A stretch of DNA of 64,000 nt, taken from IMG/VR virus record IMGVR_UViG_3300019378_000951, positions 64,001 to 128,000 of that record, one strand, 5' to 3'. Under the pieces are notes generated by a model. That model saw only the letters and a program-made list of their open reading frames with translations, was not told the DNA's origin and made no database searches. How positions within the stretch are numbered: position 1 is the first letter of the stretch; each line of letters opens with the position of its first letter. Shown here piece after piece: positions 9,533-40,298 of the stretch. Position numbers and translations under genes: made by a program. Origin of the DNA: a virus (taxonomy: Duplodnaviria; Caudoviricetes).

Positions 9533-11401
9533 ATGTATATATTTGATAAAGGAATGAAAGTTGAAGTTGTAGGACTAATAGGTGTTATTGAAGATGTTAT
9601 TGTAAACGTAGATAATAATACAGAATATGTGGTTAAATTTTCAGGTGTTGACGAACCAATAAATTATCTAGGAATTAATTTAAAATTAGTAGAAGATGAA
9701 TCAATAATTAAGTAAAGGAGGTTTCTTCTCTTATGTTTACATTAAATGAGCTAGAAGCAATGTTTGATATATTATCTTGGTGTTGCACTGAACATCCTAA
9801 CTTTGCAGAAGACGAAAGAGAAAGAGAAGAAGCTTTAATAAAAAAAGTATATGATTTAATTAAATCTATGGAGGTAAATGAATAATGAAAAGTATAGATA
9901 TAATGAAAAAAGTTTCAACAGCATTAAATGGAAAGTATAAACTACCAGAAGACTTTGCAGAAGGTTTTAGTTTTGAAAAAGAAGAGATAATAAATCCTGA
10001 CGTAATAGAAGAAGATGACTTAAGAGGATTTGGAGAGAATCTATTAGCATATGATACTACATTTGATCATAATGAAGATGAACTAACACTATTTACAATA
10101 ATAAGTGAAGATAACAAAAAATGTATGTTCCTGGTATCATCAGGAGATTTAAATCCAGAAGAGATATTGGAAAAAGGATATATTCAGTTATAAGAAAGGT
10201 GGGGACATTATGTTTAAAAGAATAAAAGAAAAATTAATAAAATGGTTTAAAGAATATTGTGAAGTTATAGAAGAAAATCACATTATATTTTCAGAGCATG
10301 ATGTCTACAATATAATACAAGAAGAATTAACTAAGAGTAAACAAGAAGAAAAGTAGAATAATAAAAAAATTAAAATTAAATTATGGAGGTAATGTATATG
10401 ATGAATAAAGTTAATAAATTATTTGGTGAAATGTATGATTTATTTAAAGAAGTATTATTAAACGATGAAGAATTTATAGCAGAATTTAAAGCTAAATTAG
10501 AAGAAAAAGAAGAACATCAGTGTGAAGGTAACTGTGGGTGTGACGGAAACTGTGGTGATGATTGTAAATGCAAAAAAGAAAAAGAATCAATAGAAACATT
10601 TGATGATTATACAGCATTCTGTGAAAGATTTGTAATGACTAATGATAAAGGCGAAGAACTTATAGACGCTAATGATTTAGATGTACCTGTAGAAGACGAA
10701 AAAATTGAAGATTATGCAAAAAATGTTACGCCGTTAATACAAGAATGGGTTAAAGAGATACAAGATGATATGCCAGAAGAAAAAGAAGATGTAAAAACAG
10801 ATGTGATAGAAGAAGTTGAAGAGAACAATGCTCTTAAAAAATTTGGAATAGCACAAGCTACTGTAGAAGATTTAGAAGATAGTAATATGAATAATATAAA
10901 AGAAGAAATCGAATTATCTGAAGAAGATATAAAAGATGCGCTTGAGCAAGTACAAGAATTAACTGAAGAGGAATTAATGGAAGTAATTAAACAGAAGCAA
11001 GAGAATGGGGAAATTGATTTAGACATTGATTTAGGAGCATTATTGGGACAACTTAAACTAATAGCTCAACAAAAAAATTCTTATAAATTTATGGAAAGAG
11101 ATGTACAAGAATACGACGATATAATAGAAAAATCTTTCGGTATATTCCCAACTGATTTAGGAGGAAATGACGAGATATTCTAATATCTCGTCTTAAAAAT
11201 TTTAAATTAGGAGGTAATAATATGACAAGAGCTGAGATAAAAGATATGCATAATGCAATAACTCATTCAGGTCTTTGGGTAATTCATATTTATGACGAAT
11301 ATATGGAAGTAAGATTTTTAGACGATGATAAAGATGATAGGTTATACAAAGTATATCCGAATGATATATGTCCAAATTGTGGATATATCAGAATATATTA
11401 A
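9533..11401 (+). CDS. Cluster of small hypothetical genes (9533-9715, 9733-9885, 9885-10193, 10210-10356, 10383-11183, 11222-11401)
   Basis: Each has a GGAGG-type RBS; 10383-11183 is highly acidic with a Cys cluster CEGNCGCDGNCGDDCKC. Confidence 0.65.
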
Positions 11402-20584: not shown

Positions 20585-22606
20585 ATGAAAGGATTATTCG
20601 ATTGTTTGAGAAATAGAATATATAGAGAAGATGAAGATATACTAAAACAAATAGCAGCTAATGCTCCTGTTGATGATTCTGAAATAGAAGCTTTTGAGGC
20701 TGATGACGAAGACGATGAAGATGAATGGGGTTTAGGCGGAATAAATATAGACGAAATTGATGACGCTGACATAGAAAGAGTAACAAATGAATTCAATATG
20801 GATGAAGGAAATAGAGCTGCTTGTAGATTAAAAACTATAGATCTTAAAGAAGACGTATTCGAAGAAGATAACGTTGAATTACAACCAGAAACTAAATTAA
20901 ATAAAAAAGTATCTGCTGATGATGATATGAGAGATTTCGTTGGTGCTGGTGATGGTTCTGGACATGATATGAAAACTGAATCTTTCGATTTAATAATGGA
21001 AGAAGTTATGGAAGAAATAGAACTAATGGATGAAGGCTTAATGGCTAACATGCGTGAAAAAAGATTAGACAAAAAATTAAATAAAATGGAACTTAAAGAC
21101 GCTAAAAGAGATCGTAAAGAAGGAATAAAACAAGCTAAAGATAAAGCTAAAGATGCTAAAAATGACGCTTTCCTTAATAAAAGAGCTGACAGAAGACAAG
21201 CCCATGCTGAATTATCCGCTGAAAGAAAAGCCGCTTACAATAAATTTGCTAAAGGCGCAGACGAAAGATTATTTGGTGGAGGAAAAGTAAGAAGAGGCAT
21301 AGCTGCTGATAAACGTGCTGGTATTAATGCTGCCAAAGCTGAATATAGAAACATTAAAAGAGATCAAATATTAAGAAAAAAAGCCAGACAAGTTGCAGTC
21401 GAAGAAGGTGTTTCTTTAGATGAAGCATTAAATTTTGTATTAGAATGTGAACAAGATTTATTAGACGAAGGATATGATTACGAAGAAATATATGGAGAAG
21501 ATAATGTAGAATATCAACCAGAAACTAAACTTAATAAAAAAGTATCTCAAGACCCTGATATGAGAGACTTTGTAGGCGCTGGTGATGGTTCTGGACATGA
21601 TATGAAAACTGAAGAGACAGATGAATTATATGATGAAGGATTATTTGCTAAAGTTGGAGAAACTGTAGATAACCGAAGAAGAAAAAAAATGGAACTAAGA
21701 GATGCAAAATATAATAAATTAAATGCTAAAGATGATGAATGGCTAAGAAAAAGAGATGCTGTAAGAGATATAAAAAGAGATTCACGCCATGCGGTAGATG
21801 CTGAACGTCGTAATTACAAAGTTAATAAAAGAGGTATTGAAAGAGATTATAAAAATGATAGAGTTAATATAAAATTAGATTCTAATGCTAGAAGAAGAGA
21901 TATTTGGAGAACTAAAAAAGCTAGACAAGTTGCAGTCGAAGAAGGTGTTTCTTTAGATGAAGCATTAAATTTTGTATTAGAATGTGAACAAGATTTATTA
22001 GATGAAGGTTTTGGATATGAAGAAATATATGGAGAAGATATATTTGAAGAAGATAATGTAGAATTACAACCTGAAACTAAACTTAATAAAAAAGTATCTC
22101 AAGATCCTGATATGAGAGATTTCGTTGGTGCTGGTGATGGTTCTGGACATGATATGAAAACTGAAGCTGCTATATTAGCTTATGAAGAAGGAATATCTTT
22201 AGAAGAAGCTATGGAATGGTTAATGGAAGATGAAGAAATATATGATGAAGGATTAAGAGATAATATAAGAGCTACAAGAGCTGCTAAAAGAGCTTATAAA
22301 GCTAAAAAGAAAGAAATATGGAAAGGTACACAAGAAGACGTAGTTGATGATGCTATAGCTAAACTTGGAAGAGATGGAAATGACAATGGAGTATTCCCTA
22401 CAAGAGTAGACCTTCAAGATGAAGTATATGATGAAGGTGGAGATCCAGATGAATGTGCACCAAAAAGACAACATCAAAAACCAGTAGGAAATGTTGATGC
22501 TGTATCAGTAGACGGAATAGACACTGATGATGAATTAATATTAGGTGTTGAAGCTGTTATAAAAGAAATAGAAGAAAGTTTAGACTTAGACGATTTTGAT
22601 TGTTAA
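20585..22606 (+). CDS. Repetitive acidic/basic protein, candidate internal head (scaffold/core) polyprotein
   Basis: Three EDNVExQPETKLNKKVS..DMRDFVGAGDGSGHDMKTE repeats; alternating D/E-rich and K/R-rich blocks; late motif at 20531-20542. Confidence 0.6.
   Translation: MKGLFDCLRNRIYREDEDILKQIAANAPVDDSEIEAFEADDEDDEDEWGLGGINIDEIDDADIERVTNEFNMDEGNRAACRLKTIDLKEDVFEEDNVELQPETKLNKKVSADDDMRDFVGAGDGSGHDMKTESFDLIMEEVMEEIELMDEGLMANMREKRLDKKLNKMELKDAKRDRKEGIKQAKDKAKDAKNDAFLNKRADRRQAHAELSAERKAAYNKFAKGADERLFGGGKVRRGIAADKRAGINAAKAEYRNIKRDQILRKKARQVAVEEGVSLDEALNFVLECEQDLLDEGYDYEEIYGEDNVEYQPETKLNKKVSQDPDMRDFVGAGDGSGHDMKTEETDELYDEGLFAKVGETVDNRRRKKMELRDAKYNKLNAKDDEWLRKRDAVRDIKRDSRHAVDAERRNYKVNKRGIERDYKNDRVNIKLDSNARRRDIWRTKKARQVAVEEGVSLDEALNFVLECEQDLLDEGFGYEEIYGEDIFEEDNVELQPETKLNKKVSQDPDMRDFVGAGDGSGHDMKTEAAILAYEEGISLEEAMEWLMEDEEIYDEGLRDNIRATRAAKRAYKAKKKEIWKGTQEDVVDDAIAKLGRDGNDNGVFPTRVDLQDEVYDEGGDPDECAPKRQHQKPVGNVDAVSVDGIDTDDELILGVEAVIKEIEESLDLDDFDC
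21376..22165 (+). repeat. About 240-bp intragenic direct repeat (21376-21613 and 21914-22165), partial third copy at 20861-20980
   Basis: Near-identical DNA encoding KKARQVAVEEGVSLDEALNFVLECEQDLLDEG...HDMKTE. Confidence 0.9.
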
Positions 22607-23317: not shown

Positions 23318-26300
23318 ATGTTTTATTTGGATAAATTAAAAGAGAATAAGCTTTATAATAAATTTCCAATTTCGGGAATAAATGCTTCAGCTCAAGATAA
23401 GCGTAATGGAACATGTTTAATGGTTTTAGGTAAAAATCAAAATGAAACAGTTGAAGTCCTTAATGCCGGACTAGTAAGTCCTATGAATTTTAGATCTTTT
23501 TATATACCACGTAAAATAAAAACAGTTCACGCAAATAAAGTAACATTAGTTAAGCAAAAAGATTATTATGATGTTATAAAATCCAAAGCTGCAAATATAA
23601 GTTTTACATTGACAACTATAGAAGCTTATAAAGGTAAAAACTTAATATATGATATGTCTCAAGAAATTGAATTTACAAATTCTATAATAAAAGTTTCAGG
23701 AAAACGTAAATACGAGATAATGTCAAAAATGATAATGACTCGTTTATATGAACTTAAAGCTCATTATCAAAATGTAATAATATTATGTCCGATGAGTATA
23801 AACGAAGAATCATATACTAATATAAATGCTGCAAATTCAATGAGTCAATATATTTATCACATGTTACAATCTGGAATTCTTGAGGATGAAATGGTTATAA
23901 TGTTTGCACCAGCTTCAAGAATATACACATTATTTAAAGGTAATGAAAATACAGCTAATGAATCAATGAAAATAATAAGACGTTTACAAAACCGTATTAA
24001 TGGTGTTGACGAAGATTCTGAAGAAAATGCTGAAATTAAAACTGTTAATGATGATGAAGTAGTTCAAGATGTATCAGAAACTGTAGTTAATAAAGAACTT
24101 AAGCCTATATTAAATAAAATAGGCATGAAAGTTGATAAGGTTCCATCAGATTTACACCCAATGGTATCTGCTTTACAAGATATGGTACAAGAAGTAATTA
24201 AAACTAAATCAGAAGAAGAAATGGTGGAAGAGGTTCTTAATAAATCACCTGAATTCTTAGAAATGTTTAGTGAATTAGTTGAAATTAAAAAGGTTGGTAT
24301 GAACAATGCCGAAGCTATTAAGAAAACAGAACGTATACAAAAACTTAAAGAAAAACAAGGGCTGGTTCAAGTTACAGATAATTTAACAATAGCAGATATA
24401 CTAGCGGATTTTGAAGAAATTAAATTAGAACCAATAATACTTCCTGCTAGAACTATTAACAAAGAAATACAGCAATCATCAGTTAAAAACTTTGATAGTT
24501 CTTATCAAAAGAAAGTGTTAGAAAAAGATATAGCAAGTATATTTACAGCATTTAACAATGATACAGATATTAAAATATTTACAACAAGAGTTCAAAAAAC
24601 TGATAGTTCTGATGATTTATCTAATAAAGAAACATACAGTCTTACAATGGAAGACGACAGAGGTAATAAACATAATGTAACATTTGATTTGCCTAAAGTT
24701 AAAGAAGGTAAATTTATGTACTTAAACTCAGGTAAAAAACTTATACAAAAACAAATAATGCTTTTACCTATAATAAAAACGCATCCAGATAAAGTACAAG
24801 TTACATCAAATGCTAATAAATTCTTCGTTGAACGTTTTGGACAAAAAATGTCATCAAGATTAGATGCATTAAAGAGATTATGCATATCTGATGCTTTAAG
24901 AGGTTCTAATATAGAAGTTAAAAAAGGTAATGCTAAAGGAGTTAACTCTAAACTTCAAACAAACCTTGAATATTTAGACTTCTCTGATAGTGTTTCTGAA
25001 ATAAACTTTGGAGACCTTAAATTACAATTTAACTATAATTTAATAATGAATATGCTTAATCCTAATAAACCAGATTTCAATGAAAAAGTATATAATGAAT
25101 TCGGAGATAAAGATAAAGATTTTATGTTATTTGGATATTCGCGTAAAGAACTTATAATGTTCGATAGAATATCTGGAGAAGTATATAGCCAAATAAATGG
25201 TAAAAATGATAAAGTTGCAGATTCTTTATTTGATTATGTATTAGGCTTAATAAATAAATCTAACGTAGATAAAAAAGTTGTAGCTTCTATACTTAATAAA
25301 AAACCTGGTAAATCATACGCGTACAGTAGAATAGCTATAAATAGTAAACGCATGCCATTAATATGTATACTTGGTTATGAACTAGGATTATCAAAAGTTC
25401 TTGAAAGATATGAAATAAAATATAAGTTCTCTCAAGAAGTACCTAAGTATGCAGCAACTAACAAACAAGAAATAATTAGATTCTTAGATGGATATTTAAC
25501 ATATGATTCTAGCCTATTACGTAATTCATTATTATTAAATGGACTTTCTGCAGTAGGTTGTGAAGAATATAGTTTTGAAGATATGGATACTATAGAACCA
25601 TATTTAGACATGTTCTATCAATTAACTGGTTCTAGAAATGCTGGTAAAGGTATACATAATAACCTTAGTTTAATGATAGACCCGTTAACACTAGATGTAT
25701 TAAGAAAACTACATTTACCAGAAAATATATATGATATATTACTTTATTCTAATACATTACTTGAAGATGTTACATTTAAGAAAATGAATGATATGAGTAC
25801 TTATCGTATAAGGGGAGCAGAACAAATACCAGCATTAGCTTATAACTGTTTAGCTAACTATGTAAGAGAATATAAAGACAAAATACGTGCAGGAAATAAT
25901 AATGCTAGAATAAGTATGCCTAGAGATATAGTAATTAAAAAGATACTTGAGCTAGCAACAGTAGATGAATATTCTACACTTAATCCATCACTTGAAATAG
26001 AACGTAGTTCAGGTGCAACATATAAAGGTTTAAGTGGTAAAATAATGCCACCTCGCATATGTGAGTAAAACTTCTTTAATTGCTGGAAACTCCTATATGG
26101 ACAATCAGCAACCAAGCTCGAAAGAGAAGGTTCAACGACTATCGAAACCGTTAATAAGGGAGTAGAGTACCGAAAGGGAAATGGGAAGCATCAGAGATGA
26201 TGAAGATATAGTCTGAACTATATAGAAATATATAGGTAACATAATGATTAACCTTGATAGTGCATATACACCTGCTATACGTAGTTATGATAAATCAATG

Positions 26301-29300
26301 AATGGATTATTTAGTTATAGTACTCCTAAAATGGGAATTTTATTATAAACACTATTGGGAGTGTAAAACTTCTTTAATTGCTGGGAACTCCTATATGGAC
26401 AATCAGCAGCCAAGCATCTATAAGATGAAGGTTCAACGACTATCGAAACCGTTAATAAGGGAGTAGAGTACACTCAGAATGAGTGGAAATGGGAAGCACT
26501 AGAGATAGTGAAGATATAGTCTGAACTATGCAGAAATGTATAGTTAACATAAATGGATAGTGACAAAGTTGGGGTTAGAAAGACAATCTAATGGCTCCAA
26601 CTATAAAAAAGCTCTTTAATTGCTGGGACATCCCATGAGGACAATCAGCAGCTTAATTAATCTTACTTTTATTTTATAACAAATATGTATAAATAAAAGT
26701 AGGAGTGGTGAATATAAATGAATCTTAAATTAGAATTAAATGGCAGTACATATAATATAAATACTGAAAGTTATCCAGAAGGATATGGATTAAAACTATA
26801 TGAACAAGCACAGAAATTCGGATATATGTGTTATAATTATTATGAATGCATAGATGACAATACTTCATATTTGCTTATGTTTTCAAAAGCATATGGCATA
26901 ATAAAAGCTAAAGTAGATAATGAAGATATTCCTAAACTATCTAAATGTACATGGAGACCTAATTATTCTAAACGATCTCAAAAATATTACGTAGAGAATA
27001 CAGATAAAGGTAAAATGCATAGATATATAATGGGGTTTAACAAAAAAGAAGATGTAGATATAAAAATTGATCATATAGATAGAGATCCTTTAAATAATTG
27101 CAAAACTAATTTACGTAAAGTAACTCAAGCTGAAAATTGTAAAAATTCTTCATTGAGAAGTGACAATACATCTGGTATAAAAGGTATACGATATGAAAAA
27201 AGTAGAAACAGATGGTCAGCTGAAATACATGTAGATGGTAAAAAATATACTAAATGTTTTGCAGTTAGTAAGTATGGATATCAGGAGGCATTAAATTTAG
27301 CTATTGAATTTAGAAGAAAGATTGCTGAAGAAAATGGATTCATAAACCCATTTAATTAAGTTCAACGACTATCGAAACCGTTAATAAGGGAGTAGAGTAC
27401 ACGAAAGCACGTGGAAACAAGAGCCACTAGAAATAGTGAAGATATAGTCTGATCTGTATAGCAATATACAGTTAACATAAATGCGTTAGACAATTAACTT
27501 ATAACCCTAATATACTTAATACAAGAGGATTCGTAGACACAGATAGATCAGAAAATCCGGCTATAGATTATTTCGGTCCAGCTGAGCTACTTAACCCATT
27601 CACTAAATTAATTGGTGAATTAAAACTTCTTTAATTGCTGGAACCTCCTATATGGACAATCAGCAGCCAAGATAAAATAATCATCTAACAATATAAAAAT
27701 CATTTTAACAAATCTCTATTAAAAATTATTGAGAGGAGTTAACAAATGCCTAAAAAATTAACAGAACAAGAAGTTCGAGATAATATTAGTAAGATAGATA
27801 ATGGAGAATATGAATTAATAGGACATTATATAAATAGTAAAACTCCAATTAAAATAAAACATAAATGTGGACGAATAATGGAAATTCAATATGGAAAATT
27901 TACTGGAAAAAGAGCTCAAAGATGCAGATGTTTATTTGAACATCATAATAAAATGAGTCTGGATGAATTTAAAAAACGTTTATTTGAAAAACATGGGAAC
28001 AATTATGAAATTGTAAACGAAAATGAGTATGTTGATTATAATACTCCTATATATTTTATACATAAACCGTGTGGTAATAAATATAAAAGAAAACCAGATA
28101 ATGTTATTAGATGTAATACATGTGTAGAATGTAGTTATACGCAAAAATTAAGAGCTTCTAATAACACTACAAAAACATTGTCTCAAATAAAGAATGAGAT
28201 TGATAAAATAACTGAGGGATCATGCAAATTAGCATACGATATAAACTATATAAATAATAAACAAGAATTGCCAATACTTCATAAGGAATGTGGTAAAATT
28301 AGCATGATTAGTTTTAATGATATTTCAGTTAAAAATACTAGATGTAGATATTGTAGTGGAAGTAAAGGAGAACTTATAATACAAGATTATCTTGATACTA
28401 ATAATATCAAATATGAACGAGAAAAAATTTTTGATAATTTAATTGATGAAAAACATCTTAGGTTTGATTTTTATATAGAAAATTACAATCACAATCTTTT
28501 AATAGAATTTGATGGAATTCAACATTTTGAACCAACATTTGGAAAAGATGATGTTGAAAAACAAAATAGATTTGAACTAACTCAAAAGCATGATAATATG
28601 AAAAATGAATATAGCAGAATACATGATATTAATCTTTTGAGAATTCGATATGATGAAATTGACAAAATAAATAAAATATTAGATGACTATTTTTATAAGG
28701 TTCAACGACTATCGAAACCGTTAATAAGGGAGTAGAGTACACTTAACTGTGGAAATGGGAAGCACTAGAGATAGTGAAGATATAGTCTGAGCTATGCAGA
28801 AATGTATAGATTAACATAACTGAATCAACACGCAGACCCACCGAGAATTAATAACCTGGTTCTCGTTAAACTTCTTTAATTGCTGGAACACCCTACAAGG
28901 ACAATCAGCAGCCAATCCTGAAAAGGAAGGTTCAACGACTATCGAAACCATTAATAAGGGAGTAGAGTACACCAACAATGGTGGAAATGGGAAGCACTAG
29001 AAATAGTGAAGATATAGTCTGATCTGTATAGTAATATACAGCTTAACATAATGCGGAATGCAGACAACTTAATTGTTGGGTTGTCTATAAAACCCTTTTA
29101 ATTGCTGGAACACCCTATATGGACAATCAGCAGCCAATCCTGAAAAGGAAGGTTCAACGACTATCGAAACCATTAATAAGGGAGTAGAGTACCGAAAGGG
29201 AAATGGAGGGCACTAGAGATAGTGAAGATATAGTCTGAACTATGCAGAAATGTATAGATTAACATATGCAACAAAAACATATAATCCCTATAAAGAAAGC

Positions 29301-30910
29301 ATCTCGTCCATTATTTGGATCAGGGGCTGAAAAAACTTTACCGTACCTACTATCAGATGACTTCGTAGATAAAGCAGAAAAAGCAGGAGTTGTAGAAAGA
29401 ATAGATAAGAAAATTAACTTAGCTGTTCTTAAATATGATGATGGTACTAGAGGAGTAATAGATCTAGCACCAGTAATGTCTAAAAACTCAAACGGTGGGT
29501 TAAAGAAATAGCTCACATTAAACGCTTTTAATTGCTGGGATATCCTATATGGACAATCAGCAGCCAAGCTCGAAAGAGAAGGTTCAACGACTATCGAAAC
29601 CGTTAATAAGGAAGTAGAGTAAATTTCACTTTGTTATGATATTTTTGAAAAGGAGCGCATCAGAGATGATGAAGATATAGTCTGATCTATACAGCAATGT
29701 ATAGTTAACACAAATGTTTTCTTAAAAAATGAAAAGAGATTTATGCTTAATGAAGGAGATAAATTTAAGCAAGGACAAATTATAGCTAAGAATGATCAAT
29801 ATTTCTTAGGAGATAATGCTGATAATGTAACTTATTCTACAGGGCGTATGACTAAAGTTGCCGTTACAAGTGCAGATTATACCTTAATATAGGGCTTTAT
29901 ATTAGAAATAATATATCGAAATACTTTTAATTGCTGGGAAATCCTACATGGACAATCAGCAGCGAAGATATAATATCTTTAACATGTATAATTTAATAAA
30001 CAAAAAGAAAATGATATTATATAACGTTCAACGACTATCCCGATAGGGAGTAGAACCAAGCGGTTCGAAATGGAGTACATCATATATGATGTTGATATAG
30101 TCTGGTCTATATAGAAATATATAGAAGGTATGATGTAGCGAATCATATCGCAACATAAACGATGAAGATAGTTCTATGGTTACTGATGCATTAGCTGAAG
30201 ACCTTACTTCTAAAATAACTATGAAGAAAACTATCAATCTAGGAGTAAATGCAAATATAGAACAGATGGTTAAAGTTGGAGATAAGATTAAAACAGGACA
30301 ATCTTTAATGATATTCGAAGAATCATTTGAAGATGAAAGTATAAATGCATTACTTGCTACTTTAGGTGATGAGTTTAATGAGCATGTAAGAGAAAACTCT
30401 AAAAATAAACTTAAATCTAAGTATACAGGAGAAATAGTTGATATAGTTATTTATTATAATAGAGATATAAGCGAATATCAACCTTCAGTACAAAAAATAT
30501 TAAAAGATTATATTAAAGCTGAAAAACTTAAAAAGCAATTTGTTAAAACTGCAACTGGGTCTAACGATGTTAGTTCTATACGTATGAAACCAATTAACAA
30601 ACAAAAACCTGGTAAAATAAAAGGTGAAGACGTTGATGGTTTATTAATAGAAATCTATATAGAATATATGGATAAAGCTGGTGTCGGAGACAAAATTACT
30701 TTCTACACAGCATTAAAGACTATCATATCAGATGTTATACCTAAAGGACAAGAACCATATAGTGAGTATAGACCTAATGAAGACATAGATGCAGTATTTT
30801 CTCCACTATCTATAAACTCGCGTATGACTACAGATGTTTTCAATGCGATGTTTTTAGGTAAGGCACTTATAGAATTAAAAAGACAAATAAAAGATATATA
30901 TGAAAAATAA
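23318..30910 (+). CDS. rpoB: Phage RNA polymerase beta-like subunit (probably virion RNAP), spliced: join(23318..26038,26247..26327,26556..26575,27484..27604,28823..28848,29054..29069,29269..29500,29717..29884,30162..30910), 1377 aa
   Basis: Splicing restores beta motifs in frame: KGLSG|INLD..STP|DSDKVGV|VRQL, NPFT|NQHADPPRI|GMQTT|QQKH, KNSNGGF|F, T|YEDS; also GKFMYLNSGKKL, GDKIT, SPLSINSRMT; exon sum 4134 nt is divisible by 3. Confidence 0.9.
26039..26246 (+). ncRNA. Group I intron 1 of RNAP beta (208 nt, no ORF)
   Basis: P1 GTGGT/GCCAC; P, Q, R and S core elements; ends AACATAATG. Confidence 0.92.
26328..26555 (+). ncRNA. Group I intron 2 of RNAP beta (228 nt, no ORF)
   Basis: P1 ACTCCT/GGGAGT, P10 CTATT/GATAG; core elements; ends AACATAAATG. 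Confidence 0.92.
26576..27483 (+). mobile_element. Group I intron 3 of RNAP beta, carrying an HNH-AP2 endonuclease
   Basis: P1 GTTGGGGT/GCTCCAAC, 7-bp P10; ORF inserted between Q and R elements. Confidence 0.92.
26718..27359 (+). CDS. Intron-encoded HNH-AP2 homing endonuclease
   Basis: MHRYIM, IDHIDRDPLNNCKTNLR (HNH), NTSGIKGI...RWSAEI...KCF..KYG..EA (AP2). Confidence 0.9.
   Translation: MNLKLELNGSTYNINTESYPEGYGLKLYEQAQKFGYMCYNYYECIDDNTSYLLMFSKAYGIIKAKVDNEDIPKLSKCTWRPNYSKRSQKYYVENTDKGKMHRYIMGFNKKEDVDIKIDHIDRDPLNNCKTNLRKVTQAENCKNSSLRSDNTSGIKGIRYEKSRNRWSAEIHVDGKKYTKCFAVSKYGYQEALNLAIEFRRKIAEENGFINPFN
27605..28822 (+). mobile_element. Group I intron 4 of RNAP beta, carrying a Zn-ribbon/PD-(D/E)xK endonuclease
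   Basis: P1 ATTCACT/GGTGAAT; core elements; ends AACATAACTG. Confidence 0.92.
27746..28735 (+). CDS. Intron-encoded endonuclease: three HxxC..CxxC Zn-ribbon repeats plus Vsr/DUF559-like nuclease domain
   Basis: KHKCG, IHKPCG, LHKECG repeats; SKGE...LRFDFYI...LIEFDGIQHF...HDNMKNEY...LLRIRY. Confidence 0.8.
   Translation: MPKKLTEQEVRDNISKIDNGEYELIGHYINSKTPIKIKHKCGRIMEIQYGKFTGKRAQRCRCLFEHHNKMSLDEFKKRLFEKHGNNYEIVNENEYVDYNTPIYFIHKPCGNKYKRKPDNVIRCNTCVECSYTQKLRASNNTTKTLSQIKNEIDKITEGSCKLAYDINYINNKQELPILHKECGKISMISFNDISVKNTRCRYCSGSKGELIIQDYLDTNNIKYEREKIFDNLIDEKHLRFDFYIENYNHNLLIEFDGIQHFEPTFGKDDVEKQNRFELTQKHDNMKNEYSRIHDINLLRIRYDEIDKINKILDDYFYKVQRLSKPLIRE
28849..29053 (+). ncRNA. Group I intron 5 of RNAP beta (205 nt, no ORF)
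   Basis: P1 CGAGAAT/GTTCTCG; core elements; ends AACATAATG. Confidence 0.92.
29070..29268 (+). ncRNA. Group I intron 6 of RNAP beta (199 nt, no ORF)
   Basis: P1 GACAACT/GGTTGTC, P10 TTGTTG/CAACAA; ends AACATATG. Confidence 0.92.
29501..29716 (+). ncRNA. Group I intron 7 of RNAP beta (216 nt, no ORF)
   Basis: P1 GTGGGT/GCTCAC; core elements; ends AACACAAATG. Confidence 0.9.
29885..30161 (+). ncRNA. Group I intron 8 of RNAP beta (277 nt, no ORF)
   Basis: Core AATTGCTGGG, AATCAGCAG, TTCAACGACTA, GATATAGTC; removal restores T-Y-E-D-S; ends AACATAAACG. Confidence 0.88.
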
Positions 30911-38611: not shown

Positions 38612-40298
38612 TCAATCTATATAATTATCTATATCTATTTCAACTATTTTTAATGTTAAGTCATGGAATGCTTTAAGTGCTATATTAAGTATTCTAGACG
38701 CTATACGATTTGTAAGTATTCCAACATTTTCTATACCTAACATATAATATAACTCACCAAAACATTTACTGCAATATTTATCACCTTTACAATATAATGG
38801 GGATCTAAATTTAACAGTTTTACCGATATAGTCTTTTATATTTTCAGGAGTTAATAATACAAGTTTTTTACCTTCAATTATATATCTGTATTGGAAGAAT
38901 TTAGTTAAATCTTTAGTAAGAGTTAATTCAAGATAACCATTAGAACCACAATCGCTTCCAGGTTCATCTAACTGACATCCTTGAAATGCTGCCATAAGTT
39001 TTTTACCTTCATATCCCATAGTGTTAACCTATACATTTCTGTATAGCTCAGGCTATATCTTCACCATTTCTGGTGCTTCCCATTTCCACTCGTTAGAGTG
39101 TACTCTACTCCCTTATTAACGGTTTCGATAGTCGTTGAACCTTCCTATCTCTAGGCTTGGCTGCTGATTGTCCTATTAGGATTTTCCAGCAATTAAGAAA
39201 GTTTATAGAGAGCCGATAAATTTTGATCCCTCTCGAGTACCAATTGCACGGTTATAAGAAGCTTGAGTTATAAGGTCGGCATATGCCGCAAATTCTTCTT
39301 GAGGTATACCATCTACTAATGATTTAGTACTTATAGTTATTTTATCATCACTAAGATGACGAATTGCACCCATTATGTTAATCGTATTTCGCAAAAATAC
39401 GTTCGCTATACATTTCTGTATAGATCAGACTATATCACAATCTTTTCAGATTTTGCTTATTTCCATTTAAGGGATTTTCACCCACCGCATCAACTTCGGC
39501 CGTACTCCTATTGCTTATTTCAAAGCCAAAGGGATAGTCGTTGAACCTTCTTCTATTGAAGCTTGGCTGCTGATTGTCCTTATAGGATTTTCCAGCAATT
39601 AAAGCAATTTGCTTAATATATTTCTATACTAAGGCGCAGTGTTGTTTACGCATTACTGTAGAGTTTTTATAGTTATTTCCATAAGACCCCCTACATCCAC
39701 TATCGTATATTTGCTGATCTGGTATATATTGGACTGTCTCTTTAGCTAATCCAAGTAATTCTTTTTCCATTTTATCCGCAACTAATACATTTCCTGCTTC
39801 TAATTCTTTTGCATATTGCTTTGATAGTTCAGCTTTTCTTTTTTCAACATTTTCAGGTGGTATTAATAAATCTATTGTAAGAGCTGCATTCATAAACTTA
39901 GCTGTAGCAAATCCAAAATATTGAACTCTATCTATATATTCTGCCATATCTTCAGATGTTATTTTATCAGTAAGTAAGTATTTAGACATAAGATCATCTA
40001 AATCTCCTATGCCACCTTTACCCATTGTCATATTTTGATACCCTAGTTTCTTTAATAAATTTTCTCCTAAAGCATATTTATTAAATATGAGTCTTCCAAC
40101 TGTAGTTTCTTCTTTATTTTTATTATAAAACTCGTTAGGATTTAATGTAAATTCATCAAATGGCTGAAATTTAGGATTTTGATCTTTTCTATATGCAAAT
40201 AAATCTTTTAAAAGATTTAAATCTATATCTTTTTCTTTTAATGAAAGTAAATATTCTTTTTCTTTAGCCGTTATTTGTCTTGCAACTTCTTTAGCCAT
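38612..40298 (-). CDS. rpoC: Phage RNA polymerase beta'-like C-terminal subunit, spliced: complement(join(38612..39016,39227..39370,39648..40298)), about 399 aa
   Basis: TTVGRLIFN, SGCRGS, MR|GA, bridge helix TREG|GYEGKKL, DCGS, Zn site RSPLYC...CSKCFG, trigger-loop end LKAFH; second junction is non-canonical. Confidence 0.85.
39017..39226 (-). ncRNA. Group I intron B of RNAP beta' (about 210 nt, boundaries uncertain by 1 nt)
   Basis: Core nearly identical to the beta introns; S element reads AAGATATAGCC; ends AACACTATG. Confidence 0.82.
39371..39647 (-). ncRNA. Group I intron A of RNAP beta' (277 nt, no ORF)
   Basis: P1 GCGT/GCGC, P10 CACT/GGTG; core elements; ends AACATAATG; removal restores MRG. 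Confidence 0.9.

What the first reader, a model, noticed from the sequence alone, without database searches (positions are those of the whole stretch)
26039..30161. Eight group I introns in one RNA polymerase gene, separated by micro-exons of 16, 20 and 26 nt
Seen: eight P/Q/R/S ribozyme cores in 4.1 kb, each with an exon-terminal U, a terminal G and its own P1 guide. Removing all eight gives one open frame of 1377 aa that rebuilds beta-subunit motifs. The internal exons are 81, 20, 121, 26, 16, 232 and 168 nt. Known: phage group I introns usually occur singly or a few per gene. Inference: this is a eukaryote-like exon/intron architecture in an essential prokaryotic-virus gene. The 16-nt exon must serve as 3' exon for intron 5 and 5' exon for intron 6, so ordered splicing or exon skipping could gate RNAP production.
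Basis: partly seen in the sequence, partly recalled or inferred. Interest (0 to 1): 0.95.

Follow-up and report, generated by a model that had tools for sequence, protein, structure and literature searches.

The report
Eight self-splicing introns in one phage gene
A giant phage's virion RNA polymerase gene really is cut into nine pieces by eight self-splicing group I introns, with exons as short as 16 bases; this is the most crowded case seen so far of something already annotated in its relatives AR9 and PBS1.

Summary
Window 26039-30161 holds eight group I introns of 208, 228, 908, 1218, 205, 199, 216 and 277 nt. Six score 73-83 bits on Rfam RF00028. The other two are split by endonuclease genes.

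Removing the introns gives one open frame of 1377 aa. It aligns without a gap at all eight junctions to six uninterrupted homologues. Each intron's guide pairs with its own 5' exon (P1) and, for six of them, with its own 3' exon (P10). Natural intron-less alleles exist for every site.

The gene is the orthologue of the AR9/PBS1 virion RNA polymerase beta-like subunit. That gene is already annotated in AR9 as six joined pieces, meaning five group I introns and an 11-nt micro-exon. Internexus and BpSp also carry five introns. So the architecture is not new in kind.

Among 80 IMG/VR orthologues and four further isolates fetched, eight introns is the highest count, and at least 13 insertion sites fall within about 237 codons. 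Near-identical strains lack introns 7 and 8, or 1, 2 and 4, so the introns are mobile or recently mobile.

Nothing supports splicing order or exon skipping acting as a gate: the P10 and P1 footprints never overlap in the micro-exons. The scan's first stage noted this same stretch before, in another window.

The parts
23318..26038 (+). Exon 1 (907 codons from ATG 23318; the frame is open from TTG 23291). N-terminal part of the virion RNA polymerase beta-like subunit.
   Evidence: PHROG 38251 'RNA polymerase beta subunit', E 2e-199. 38% identity over its whole length to the AR9/PBS1 gene. Ends in U.
26039..26246 (+). Intron 1, 208 nt, no ORF
   Evidence: RF00028 83.4 bits. P1 5 bp with a U.G pair, P10 4 bp. 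Absent in L002 and L003, where exons 1 and 2 are contiguous.
26247..26327 (+). Exon 2, 81 nt
   Evidence: Gap-free alignment to homologues. 70 of 81 nt identical to the contiguous L002 sequence.
26328..26555 (+). Intron 2, 228 nt, no ORF
   Evidence: RF00028 83.3 bits. P1 8 bp, P10 7 bp. Absent in L002, L003 and AR9.
26556..26575 (+). Exon 3, a 20-nt micro-exon
   Evidence: Its first 7 nt form P10 of intron 2 and its last 9 nt form P1 of intron 3. The same coding bases are contiguous in L002.
26576..27483 (+). Intron 3, 908 nt, with an HNH_3 + AP2 homing endonuclease ORF (26718-27359) in the P6 loop
   Evidence: 3' half scores 38 bits on RF00028; the 5' half aligns with the other copies. Pfam AP2 1.9e-13 and HNH_3. 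The ORF is 51% identical to AR9 gp189, which sits in AR9's intron at the same site. The L002 copy is 98% identical, against 80% in exon 1.
27484..27604 (+). Exon 4, 121 nt
   Evidence: Gap-free alignment.
27605..28822 (+). Intron 4, 1218 nt, with a 329-aa putative homing endonuclease ORF (27746-28735) in the P6 loop. The ORF's 3' end overlaps the ribozyme core.
   Evidence: 3' half scores 30 bits on RF00028. PHROG 559, 9084 and 7140 (endonuclease, homing endonuclease, intron-encoded nuclease). It has repeated ~60-aa modules like AR9 gp187. No Pfam, NCBIfam or PDB match. The intron is absent in L002, L086 and AR9.
28823..28848 (+). Exon 5, a 26-nt micro-exon
   Evidence: Encodes the start of the conserved HADPPRIGMQTTQQKH motif.
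28849..29053 (+). Intron 5, 205 nt, no ORF
   Evidence: RF00028 79.8 bits. P1 7 bp, P10 3 bp. Absent in AR9. L086 has an intron 2 nt upstream instead.
29054..29069 (+). Exon 6, a 16-nt micro-exon
   Evidence: Its first 3 nt form P10 of intron 5 and its last 8 nt form P1 of intron 6.
29070..29268 (+). Intron 6, 199 nt, no ORF
   Evidence: RF00028 82.4 bits. P1 8 bp, P10 6 bp. Its 3' end is present at 96% identity in L085. Absent in L086 and AR9.
29269..29500 (+). Exon 7, 232 nt
   Evidence: Gap-free alignment.
29501..29716 (+). Intron 7, 216 nt, no ORF
   Evidence: RF00028 79.8 bits. P1 6 bp. Same site as AR9's fifth intron. Absent in L085, a 96%-identical relative.
29717..29884 (+). Exon 8, 168 nt
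   Evidence: Gap-free alignment. Contiguous with exons 7 and 9 in L085.
29885..30161 (+). Intron 8, 277 nt, no ORF. A divergent subtype with a long P6 region and an extra 3' hairpin, as in the AR9 introns.
   Evidence: RF00028 73.4 bits. 59-67% identity to introns 1-7. Weak P1 of 3 bp. Absent in L085 and AR9.
30162..30910 (+). Exon 9 (749 nt coding plus the stop codon), C-terminal part starting at the YEDS motif
   Evidence: Pfam RNA_pol_Rpb2_6 5e-08. PHROG 14872 positions 1148-1392 of 1393.

Best explanation
[quoted passage not shown] The phage is a 216-kb IMG/VR record with about 27% GC. The introns are packed into the 4.1 kb that encodes the most conserved, active-site-proximal part of the protein. 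The gene is transcribed as one precursor. Each ribozyme pairs its own internal guide with the last 5-9 nt of its 5' exon (P1, U.G at the cut). It usually also pairs with the first 3-7 nt of its 3' exon (P10). It then removes itself after its terminal G. Eight such reactions give a 1377-codon mRNA. Introns 1-7 are one family (70-87% identical) that has spread to different sites. Intron 8 is a second subtype. Two introns carry homing endonuclease genes. The array is best read as the result of repeated invasion of a homing hot spot, not as a regulatory device. Shown here: the introns, the junctions, the guide pairings, the covariation and the presence/absence polymorphism. Inferred: actual self-splicing, homing by the two endonucleases, and spread of the ORF-less copies by co-conversion, by endonucleases acting in trans, or by reverse splicing.
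For: Rfam hits. An open 1377/1386-aa spliced frame. Gap-free alignment at all eight junctions to six uninterrupted homologues of 1362-1546 aa. P1 and P10 are specific to the cognate exons: 1 and 2 of 40,320 assignments reach the observed totals. Eleven base pairs in P3, P6, P8 and P9 show compensatory changes among seven ORF-less copies. An in-frame stop lies 1-29 nt into every intron. Natural intron-less alleles exist for each site: sites 1, 2 and 4 in L002; 1 and 2 in L003; 3, 4 and 6 in L086; 7 and 8 in L085; 1, 2, 4, 5, 6 and 8 in AR9. L002's copy of exon 3, intron 3 and exon 4 is 98% identical, against 80% in exon 1, which fits recent homing with co-conversion. The intron 3 endonuclease is 51% identical to the one in AR9's intron at the same site. 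The orthologues in AR9, Internexus and BpSp each carry five introns. Of 80 IMG/VR orthologues, about 58 are uninterrupted, about 20 have one or two insertions, and AR9 has five.
Against: There are no RNA data, so splicing is inferred. Intron 8 has a weak P1, and introns 7 and 8 have little or no P10. Six of the eight introns have no endonuclease, so how they reached or keep their sites is unknown. The record is a metagenome assembly, and related strains with fewer introns exist in similar samples.
Confidence: 0.88

Rival explanations
1. The dense intron and micro-exon chain is a regulatory device. An obligatory order of splicing, or programmed exon skipping, sets how much functional RNA polymerase subunit is made.
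For: [quoted passage not shown] Introns 1, 2, 4 and 5 share an identical P3 helix, so hybrid ribozymes could form in principle. Two folded ~200-nt ribozymes can hardly dock on a 16-nt exon at the same time (inference).
Against: The P10 and P1 footprints do not overlap in any micro-exon, so either order gives the same mRNA. Skipping exon 3 (20 nt), 5 (26 nt) or 6 (16 nt) alone shifts the frame. Skipping 5 and 6 together removes the conserved HADPPRIGMQTT motif. Near-identical strains do without introns 7 and 8, or 1, 2 and 4, so no individual intron is needed.
Confidence: 0.08
2. The array is kept because it pays in phage-phage competition. Each occupied site is immune to the cognate homing endonuclease of a co-infecting relative. 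The two resident endonucleases cut the rival's polymerase gene.
For: An intron endonuclease in a jumbo phage RNA polymerase gene interferes with a co-infecting phage (PhiPA3 gp210, PMC11620839, abstract seen). At least 13 insertion sites in about 237 codons, with variable occupancy among relatives, indicate heavy endonuclease traffic at this locus.
Against: Purely circumstantial. Selfish accumulation at a conserved target explains the same pattern without any benefit. Six introns have no endonuclease.
Confidence: 0.2
3. The eight-intron arrangement is a chimera of strains produced by metagenome assembly. Real genomes carry fewer introns each.
For: Close relatives with different intron sets occur in related samples (L001, L002, L085).
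Against: Introns 1-2-3 and 4-5-6 are linked through exons of 16-81 nt, well within a read or k-mer. The exons lie in correct order and frame throughout. The introns differ enough from each other (59-87% identity) not to collapse in assembly.
Confidence: 0.04
4. The gene is a decaying pseudogene whose introns no longer splice.
For: None beyond the weak P1 of intron 8.
Against: The ribozyme cores are intact with compensatory changes. The guides match their exons. The spliced frame has no stop, and conserved beta motifs are kept.
Confidence: 0.02

Closest known systems
Virion RNA polymerase beta-like subunit gene of Bacillus phages AR9 and PBS1 (NC_031039 BI022_gp188), and of Internexus and BpSp (Takahashivirus)
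   Same: It is the orthologous gene: 38% identity over exon 1 and about 60% over the C-terminal part. The same conserved stretch is interrupted by several group I introns. Two insertion sites are identical (our sites 3 and 7). An orthologous HNH-AP2 endonuclease sits in the site 3 intron. AR9 has an 11-nt micro-exon and BpSp one of about 33 nt. From my own memory of the abstract of Lavysh et al. 2016 (Virology 495:185), which is not held in the library, the AR9 intervening sequences were shown to be self-splicing.
   Different: Eight introns instead of five. Six of our sites (1, 2, 4, 5, 6, 8) are empty in AR9. There are three micro-exons in a row-like chain. Seven of the introns are close paralogues of a short ~200-nt type, whereas AR9's are 300-380 nt with a long 3' hairpin tail.
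Staphylococcus phage Twort gene with three group I introns (Landthaler and Shub 1999, PNAS 96:7005)
   Same: [quoted passage not shown]
   Different: Three introns against eight, in a different gene. Skipping was observed experimentally there; nothing is known here.
Intron-rich jumbo phage genomes (Jug phages; PMC12880540)
   Same: Many short (~206-nt) group I introns per genome (18.5 on average). Essential genes are split into two or three fragments. Splicing was supported by metatranscriptomes. This genome likewise has at least 16 group I introns in 216 kb.
   Different: No gene with eight introns or with 16-26-nt exons is described in the passages read. The phage clade and presumed host are different.
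Fungal mitochondrial cox1 genes with many group I introns (own knowledge, not checked here)
   Same: A high number of group I introns, with very short exons, in a conserved catalytic gene.
   Different: An organelle rather than a virus. Most of those introns carry LAGLIDADG or GIY-YIG genes and depend on maturases.

Membership tests
Group I catalytic intron (Rfam RF00028) | Conserved P3-P9 core that scores above the family's gathering threshold | tested here: met
   Six introns score 73-83 bits (gathering score 50). Introns 3 and 4 are split by ORFs: their 3' halves score 38 and 30 bits, and their 5' halves align with the family copies.
Group I catalytic intron (Rfam RF00028) | 5' splice site after a U that forms a U.G wobble in P1 with an internal guide sequence | tested here: met
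   All eight 5' exons end in U. P1 has 5-9 contiguous bp for introns 1-7 and 3 bp for intron 8. The cognate assignment is the unique best of 40,320.
Group I catalytic intron (Rfam RF00028) | Terminal G at the 3' splice site, with P10 pairing to the 3' exon | tested here: met
   All eight introns end in G. P10 has 3-7 bp for introns 1-6 and is weak or absent for 7 and 8.
Group I catalytic intron (Rfam RF00028) | Helices maintained by compensatory changes | tested here: met
   Eleven of 38 predicted pairs have changes on both sides, in P3, P6, P8 and P9, among seven copies.
Group I catalytic intron (Rfam RF00028) | Guanosine-dependent self-splicing | not testable with these tools
   Needs an in vitro transcript or RNA from infected cells.
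Mobile (homing) group I intron | Homing endonuclease ORF in a peripheral loop | tested here: met
   Met for two of the eight. Intron 3 has an HNH_3 + AP2 ORF. Intron 4 has a 329-aa ORF matching PHROG 559, 9084 and 7140. Both sit in the P6 loop. Six introns have no ORF.
Mobile (homing) group I intron | Presence/absence polymorphism at an otherwise conserved site, with the intron more similar than its flanks | tested here: met
   Intron-less alleles exist for all eight sites. Intron 3 with its flanking exons is 98% identical between the window and L002, against 80% in exon 1.
Jumbo phage virion RNA polymerase beta-like subunit (AR9 gp188 orthologue) | Full-length homology to the AR9/PBS1 protein and conserved beta motifs after splicing | tested here: met
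   tblastn gives 38% identity over 907 aa. PHROG 38251, 14872 and 3148 match. Pfam Rpb2 domain 6 matches in exon 9. The motifs HADPPRIGMQTTQQKH and YEDS are rebuilt across junctions. Packaging into virions was not testable.

The most novel reading that the evidence does not exclude
This polymerase segment may be an arms-race locus. Repeated endonuclease attack by co-infecting relatives would have filled eight of at least 13 possible sites. Each intron would act as an immunity plug, and two would also act as weapons. The resulting 16-26-nt exons would force strictly sequential, co-transcriptional splicing. That would make this the most demanding natural substrate known for group I ribozymes in a virus.
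Probability: 0.15. Interest if true: 0.75.

Novelty: new member of a known kind. Interest (0 to 1): 0.5.

Why it matters
This is the most intron-dense phage protein gene I could find: eight group I introns, with 84% of a 4.1-kb stretch being intron. The comparison covered 80 IMG/VR orthologues and five isolate phages examined here (AR9, Internexus, BpSp, LPJP1 and SA1; PBS1 and Goe21 only matched in the search). Close strains with different intron sets are available. That makes it a natural system for three questions. How do ORF-less introns spread? How far do co-conversion tracts reach? Can ribozymes share exons of 16-26 nt? It also shows a practical problem. Gene callers truncate this gene, and a whole PHROG family (38251) is built from exon-1-only calls. 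It does not change the concept, because AR9 and PBS1 already show the same architecture with five introns and an 11-nt exon.

Tried and rejected
- Megablast of the region against the phage collection found only short intron-core matches, with no close genome.
- cmscan at the E-value threshold on L001-L003 returned nothing. Yet L002 holds a 98%-identical copy of intron 3 and L003 holds two ORF-bearing introns. Rfam scans therefore miss ORF-split introns, and counts based on them are lower bounds.
- The search for related loci with the single exon 9 protein found no relatives. The alignment-based query was needed.
- The 329-aa intron 4 ORF has no Pfam, NCBIfam or PDB sequence match. Only PHROGs name it.
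- I looked for a rule that the smallest exons are flanked by introns with different P3 helices, which would disfavour hybrid ribozymes. It holds for exons 3 and 6 but not for exon 5, where introns 4 and 5 share P3, so I dropped it.
- Lavysh et al. 2016 and Landthaler and Shub 1999 are not held in the library. What I say about their experiments rests on titles, on a review, and on memory.
- No structure or complex prediction was run, because none bears on the question.


Full report
**What is there**

The window is bases 64001-128000 of a 216,390-bp IMG/VR virus record, about 84% complete and about 27% GC.

Rfam RF00028 finds six complete group I introns on the + strand between 26028 and 30124, at 73-83 bits. 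At a looser threshold it finds two more 3' halves, at 27344-27471 and 28676-28809. These two belong to introns whose P6 loops hold open reading frames at 26718-27359 and 27746-28735.

The Rfam matches stop short of the real 3' ends. A conserved tail ending in G follows each match, 11-13 nt long, or 37 nt with an extra hairpin in intron 8.

- Intron 1: 26039-26246
- Intron 2: 26328-26555
- Intron 3: 26576-27483
- Intron 4: 27605-28822
- Intron 5: 28849-29053
- Intron 6: 29070-29268
- Intron 7: 29501-29716
- Intron 8: 29885-30161

The internal exons are 81, 20, 121, 26, 16, 232 and 168 nt. Introns make up 3459 of the 4123 bases.

**Are the junctions right?**

Four independent lines agree.

1. 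The spliced sequence is one open frame of 1377 codons from ATG 23318.

2. Aligned with six uninterrupted homologues of 1362-1546 aa, it shows no gap at any of the eight junctions. The junctions fall inside highly conserved motifs.

3. Every 5' exon ends in U and every intron in G. Each intron's internal guide pairs with its own 5' exon: 5-9 contiguous bp for introns 1-7 and 3 bp for intron 8. For introns 1-6 it also pairs, directly adjacent, with its own 3' exon (3-7 bp). Over all 40,320 ways of assigning exons to introns, the true assignment is the single best for P1 (53 bp against a mean of 18.5). For P10 only 2 of 40,320 assignments reach the observed total (31 bp against a mean of 7.8).

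4. Natural intron-less alleles show the exons joined exactly as predicted:
- L002 (85% aa identity) reads straight through sites 1, 2 and 4.
- L003 reads through sites 1 and 2.
- L085 (96% nt identity) carries the end of intron 6 but reads through sites 7 and 8.
- L086 reads through sites 3, 4 and 6.
- AR9 reads through sites 1, 2, 4, 5, 6 and 8.

The ribozymes themselves look functional. Among seven ORF-less copies, 11 pairs in P3, P6, P8 and P9 keep pairing through changes on both sides. An in-frame stop lies 1-29 nt inside each intron, before the core.

**What the gene is**

Exon 1 matches PHROG 38251, 'RNA polymerase beta subunit'. Exon 9 matches the last 245 positions of the full-length families 14872 and 3148, and Pfam Rpb2 domain 6.

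The closest annotated relatives are the uracil-DNA Bacillus jumbo phages PBS1, AR9, Goe21, Internexus and BpSp, at 36-38% identity over exon 1 and about 60% over the C-terminal part. In AR9 the gene is annotated as the virion RNA polymerase beta subunit, N-terminal part.

**The precedent**

The AR9 coding sequence is annotated as a join of six pieces. Rfam finds five introns in it.

My own splice gives exons of 2796, 78, 11, 178, 220 and 911 nt and an open 1397-aa frame. AR9 therefore already has five group I introns and an 11-nt micro-exon in this gene.

Two of its sites are identical to ours (sites 3 and 7). Its HNH-AP2 endonuclease, in the site 3 intron, is 51% identical to ours.

Internexus has the same five introns. 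BpSp has five at partly different sites, with an exon of about 33 nt. LPJP1 and SA1 are uninterrupted.

Intron-rich jumbo phage genomes have also been described: 18.5 short group I introns per genome in Jug phages, with essential genes in two or three pieces (PMC12880540).

**How unusual is eight?**

Of 80 orthologous loci fetched from IMG/VR, about 58 are uninterrupted over the region, about 20 carry one or two insertions, and AR9 carries five. Many database proteins are C-terminal fragments that start near our sites 5/6, 7 and 8, so those sites are often occupied elsewhere.

Counting all loci examined, at least 13 different insertion sites lie within about 237 codons. Eight in one gene is the maximum I found. 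It is a record in degree, not a new kind.

**How it most likely works and arose**

The precursor is spliced eight times by ordinary guanosine-initiated group I chemistry. This is inferred from the anatomy; there are no RNA data.

Introns 1-7, and one intron in the neighbouring minus-strand gene, are 70-87% identical. They differ mainly in their guides and in compensated helices. Intron 8 is 59-67% identical to them and resembles the AR9 type. This points to spread of one short intron family to new sites within this genome or lineage.

Two observations show recent mobility:
- Strains 96% identical at the DNA level lack introns 7 and 8.
- The block of exon 3, intron 3 and exon 4 is 98% identical between the window and L002, while exon 1 is 80% identical. 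This is what homing with co-conversion of flanks predicts.

How the six ORF-less copies move is not shown. They might move by hitch-hiking on nearby double-strand breaks, through endonucleases acting in trans, or by reverse splicing.

**The regulatory idea**

In each micro-exon the bases used for P10 of the upstream intron and for P1 of the downstream intron are distinct: 7 and 9 of 20 nt, 3 and 7 of 26, and 3 and 8 of 16. No order of splicing is therefore imposed by sequence, and both orders give the same mRNA.

Skipping any single micro-exon shifts the frame. Close relatives live without several of the introns. I therefore find no support for gating, although it is not excluded. Exon skipping has been reported for the three-intron Twort gene (PMC3073962).

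**Caveats**

- The record is a metagenome assembly, so linkage of all eight introns on one molecule rests on the assembly.
- Intron 8 has a weak P1, and introns 7 and 8 have little P10.
- The AR9 and Twort experiments could not be read in the library.

**Verdict**

The structural interpretation is right. The novelty and the regulatory inference are overstated. This is an extreme new member of a known kind.

Noticed in passing
window 39029-39266 and 39406-39657, minus strand: Two more RF00028 introns (85 bits each) lie in a minus-strand gene. The first is 75-80% identical to introns 1-7 of the beta gene.
   Followed up: partly
whole record G000 (216,390 bp): At least 16 group I introns in the genome: 10 in this window plus six further hits outside it. 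That genome-wide scan missed intron 8 and the 3' half of intron 4, so the count is a lower bound.
   Followed up: partly
window 20585-22606, + strand: A 673-aa, very acidic ORF with a motif of about 30-40 aa recurring three times (EDNVE.QPETKLNKKVS..DMRDFVGAGDGSGHDMKTE), two genes upstream of the polymerase gene. Function unknown.
   Followed up: no
PHROG 38251: This 945-position 'RNA polymerase beta subunit' family covers only exon 1. It appears to be built from gene calls truncated at the first intron, so the gene is systematically mis-annotated in databases.
   Followed up: no
L001 3576-4236: A 94%-identical relative has no intron at our site 1. It has a different insertion 12 nt downstream, at the AR9 first-intron site (after NLD). 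That insertion carries an ORF with the same repeated cysteine-containing modules as the intron 4 ORF. The contig ends inside it.
   Followed up: partly
L003 7666-8390 and L088 (BpSp) 9790-10508: A further insertion site upstream of ours, after LNPSL, is occupied in a 53%-identical relative. By tblastn coordinates it is probably also occupied in Bacillus phage BpSp.
   Followed up: partly
splice sites 1, 4 and 7, compared with L002 and L085: Intron-less alleles often carry a different synonymous base where our exon ends in U, or in the neighbouring codons: GGA against GGT at site 1, ACG against ACT at site 4, and GGT TTC against GGG T|TT at site 7. This fits co-conversion, or selection for the U.G pair and P1.
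   Followed up: partly
L086 1820-5192: In the 73%-identical relative, the genes downstream of the polymerase gene differ from those in the window (DUF1256, a FAD-dependent oxidoreductase-like gene, TSCPD). Synteny therefore breaks right after this gene.
   Followed up: no
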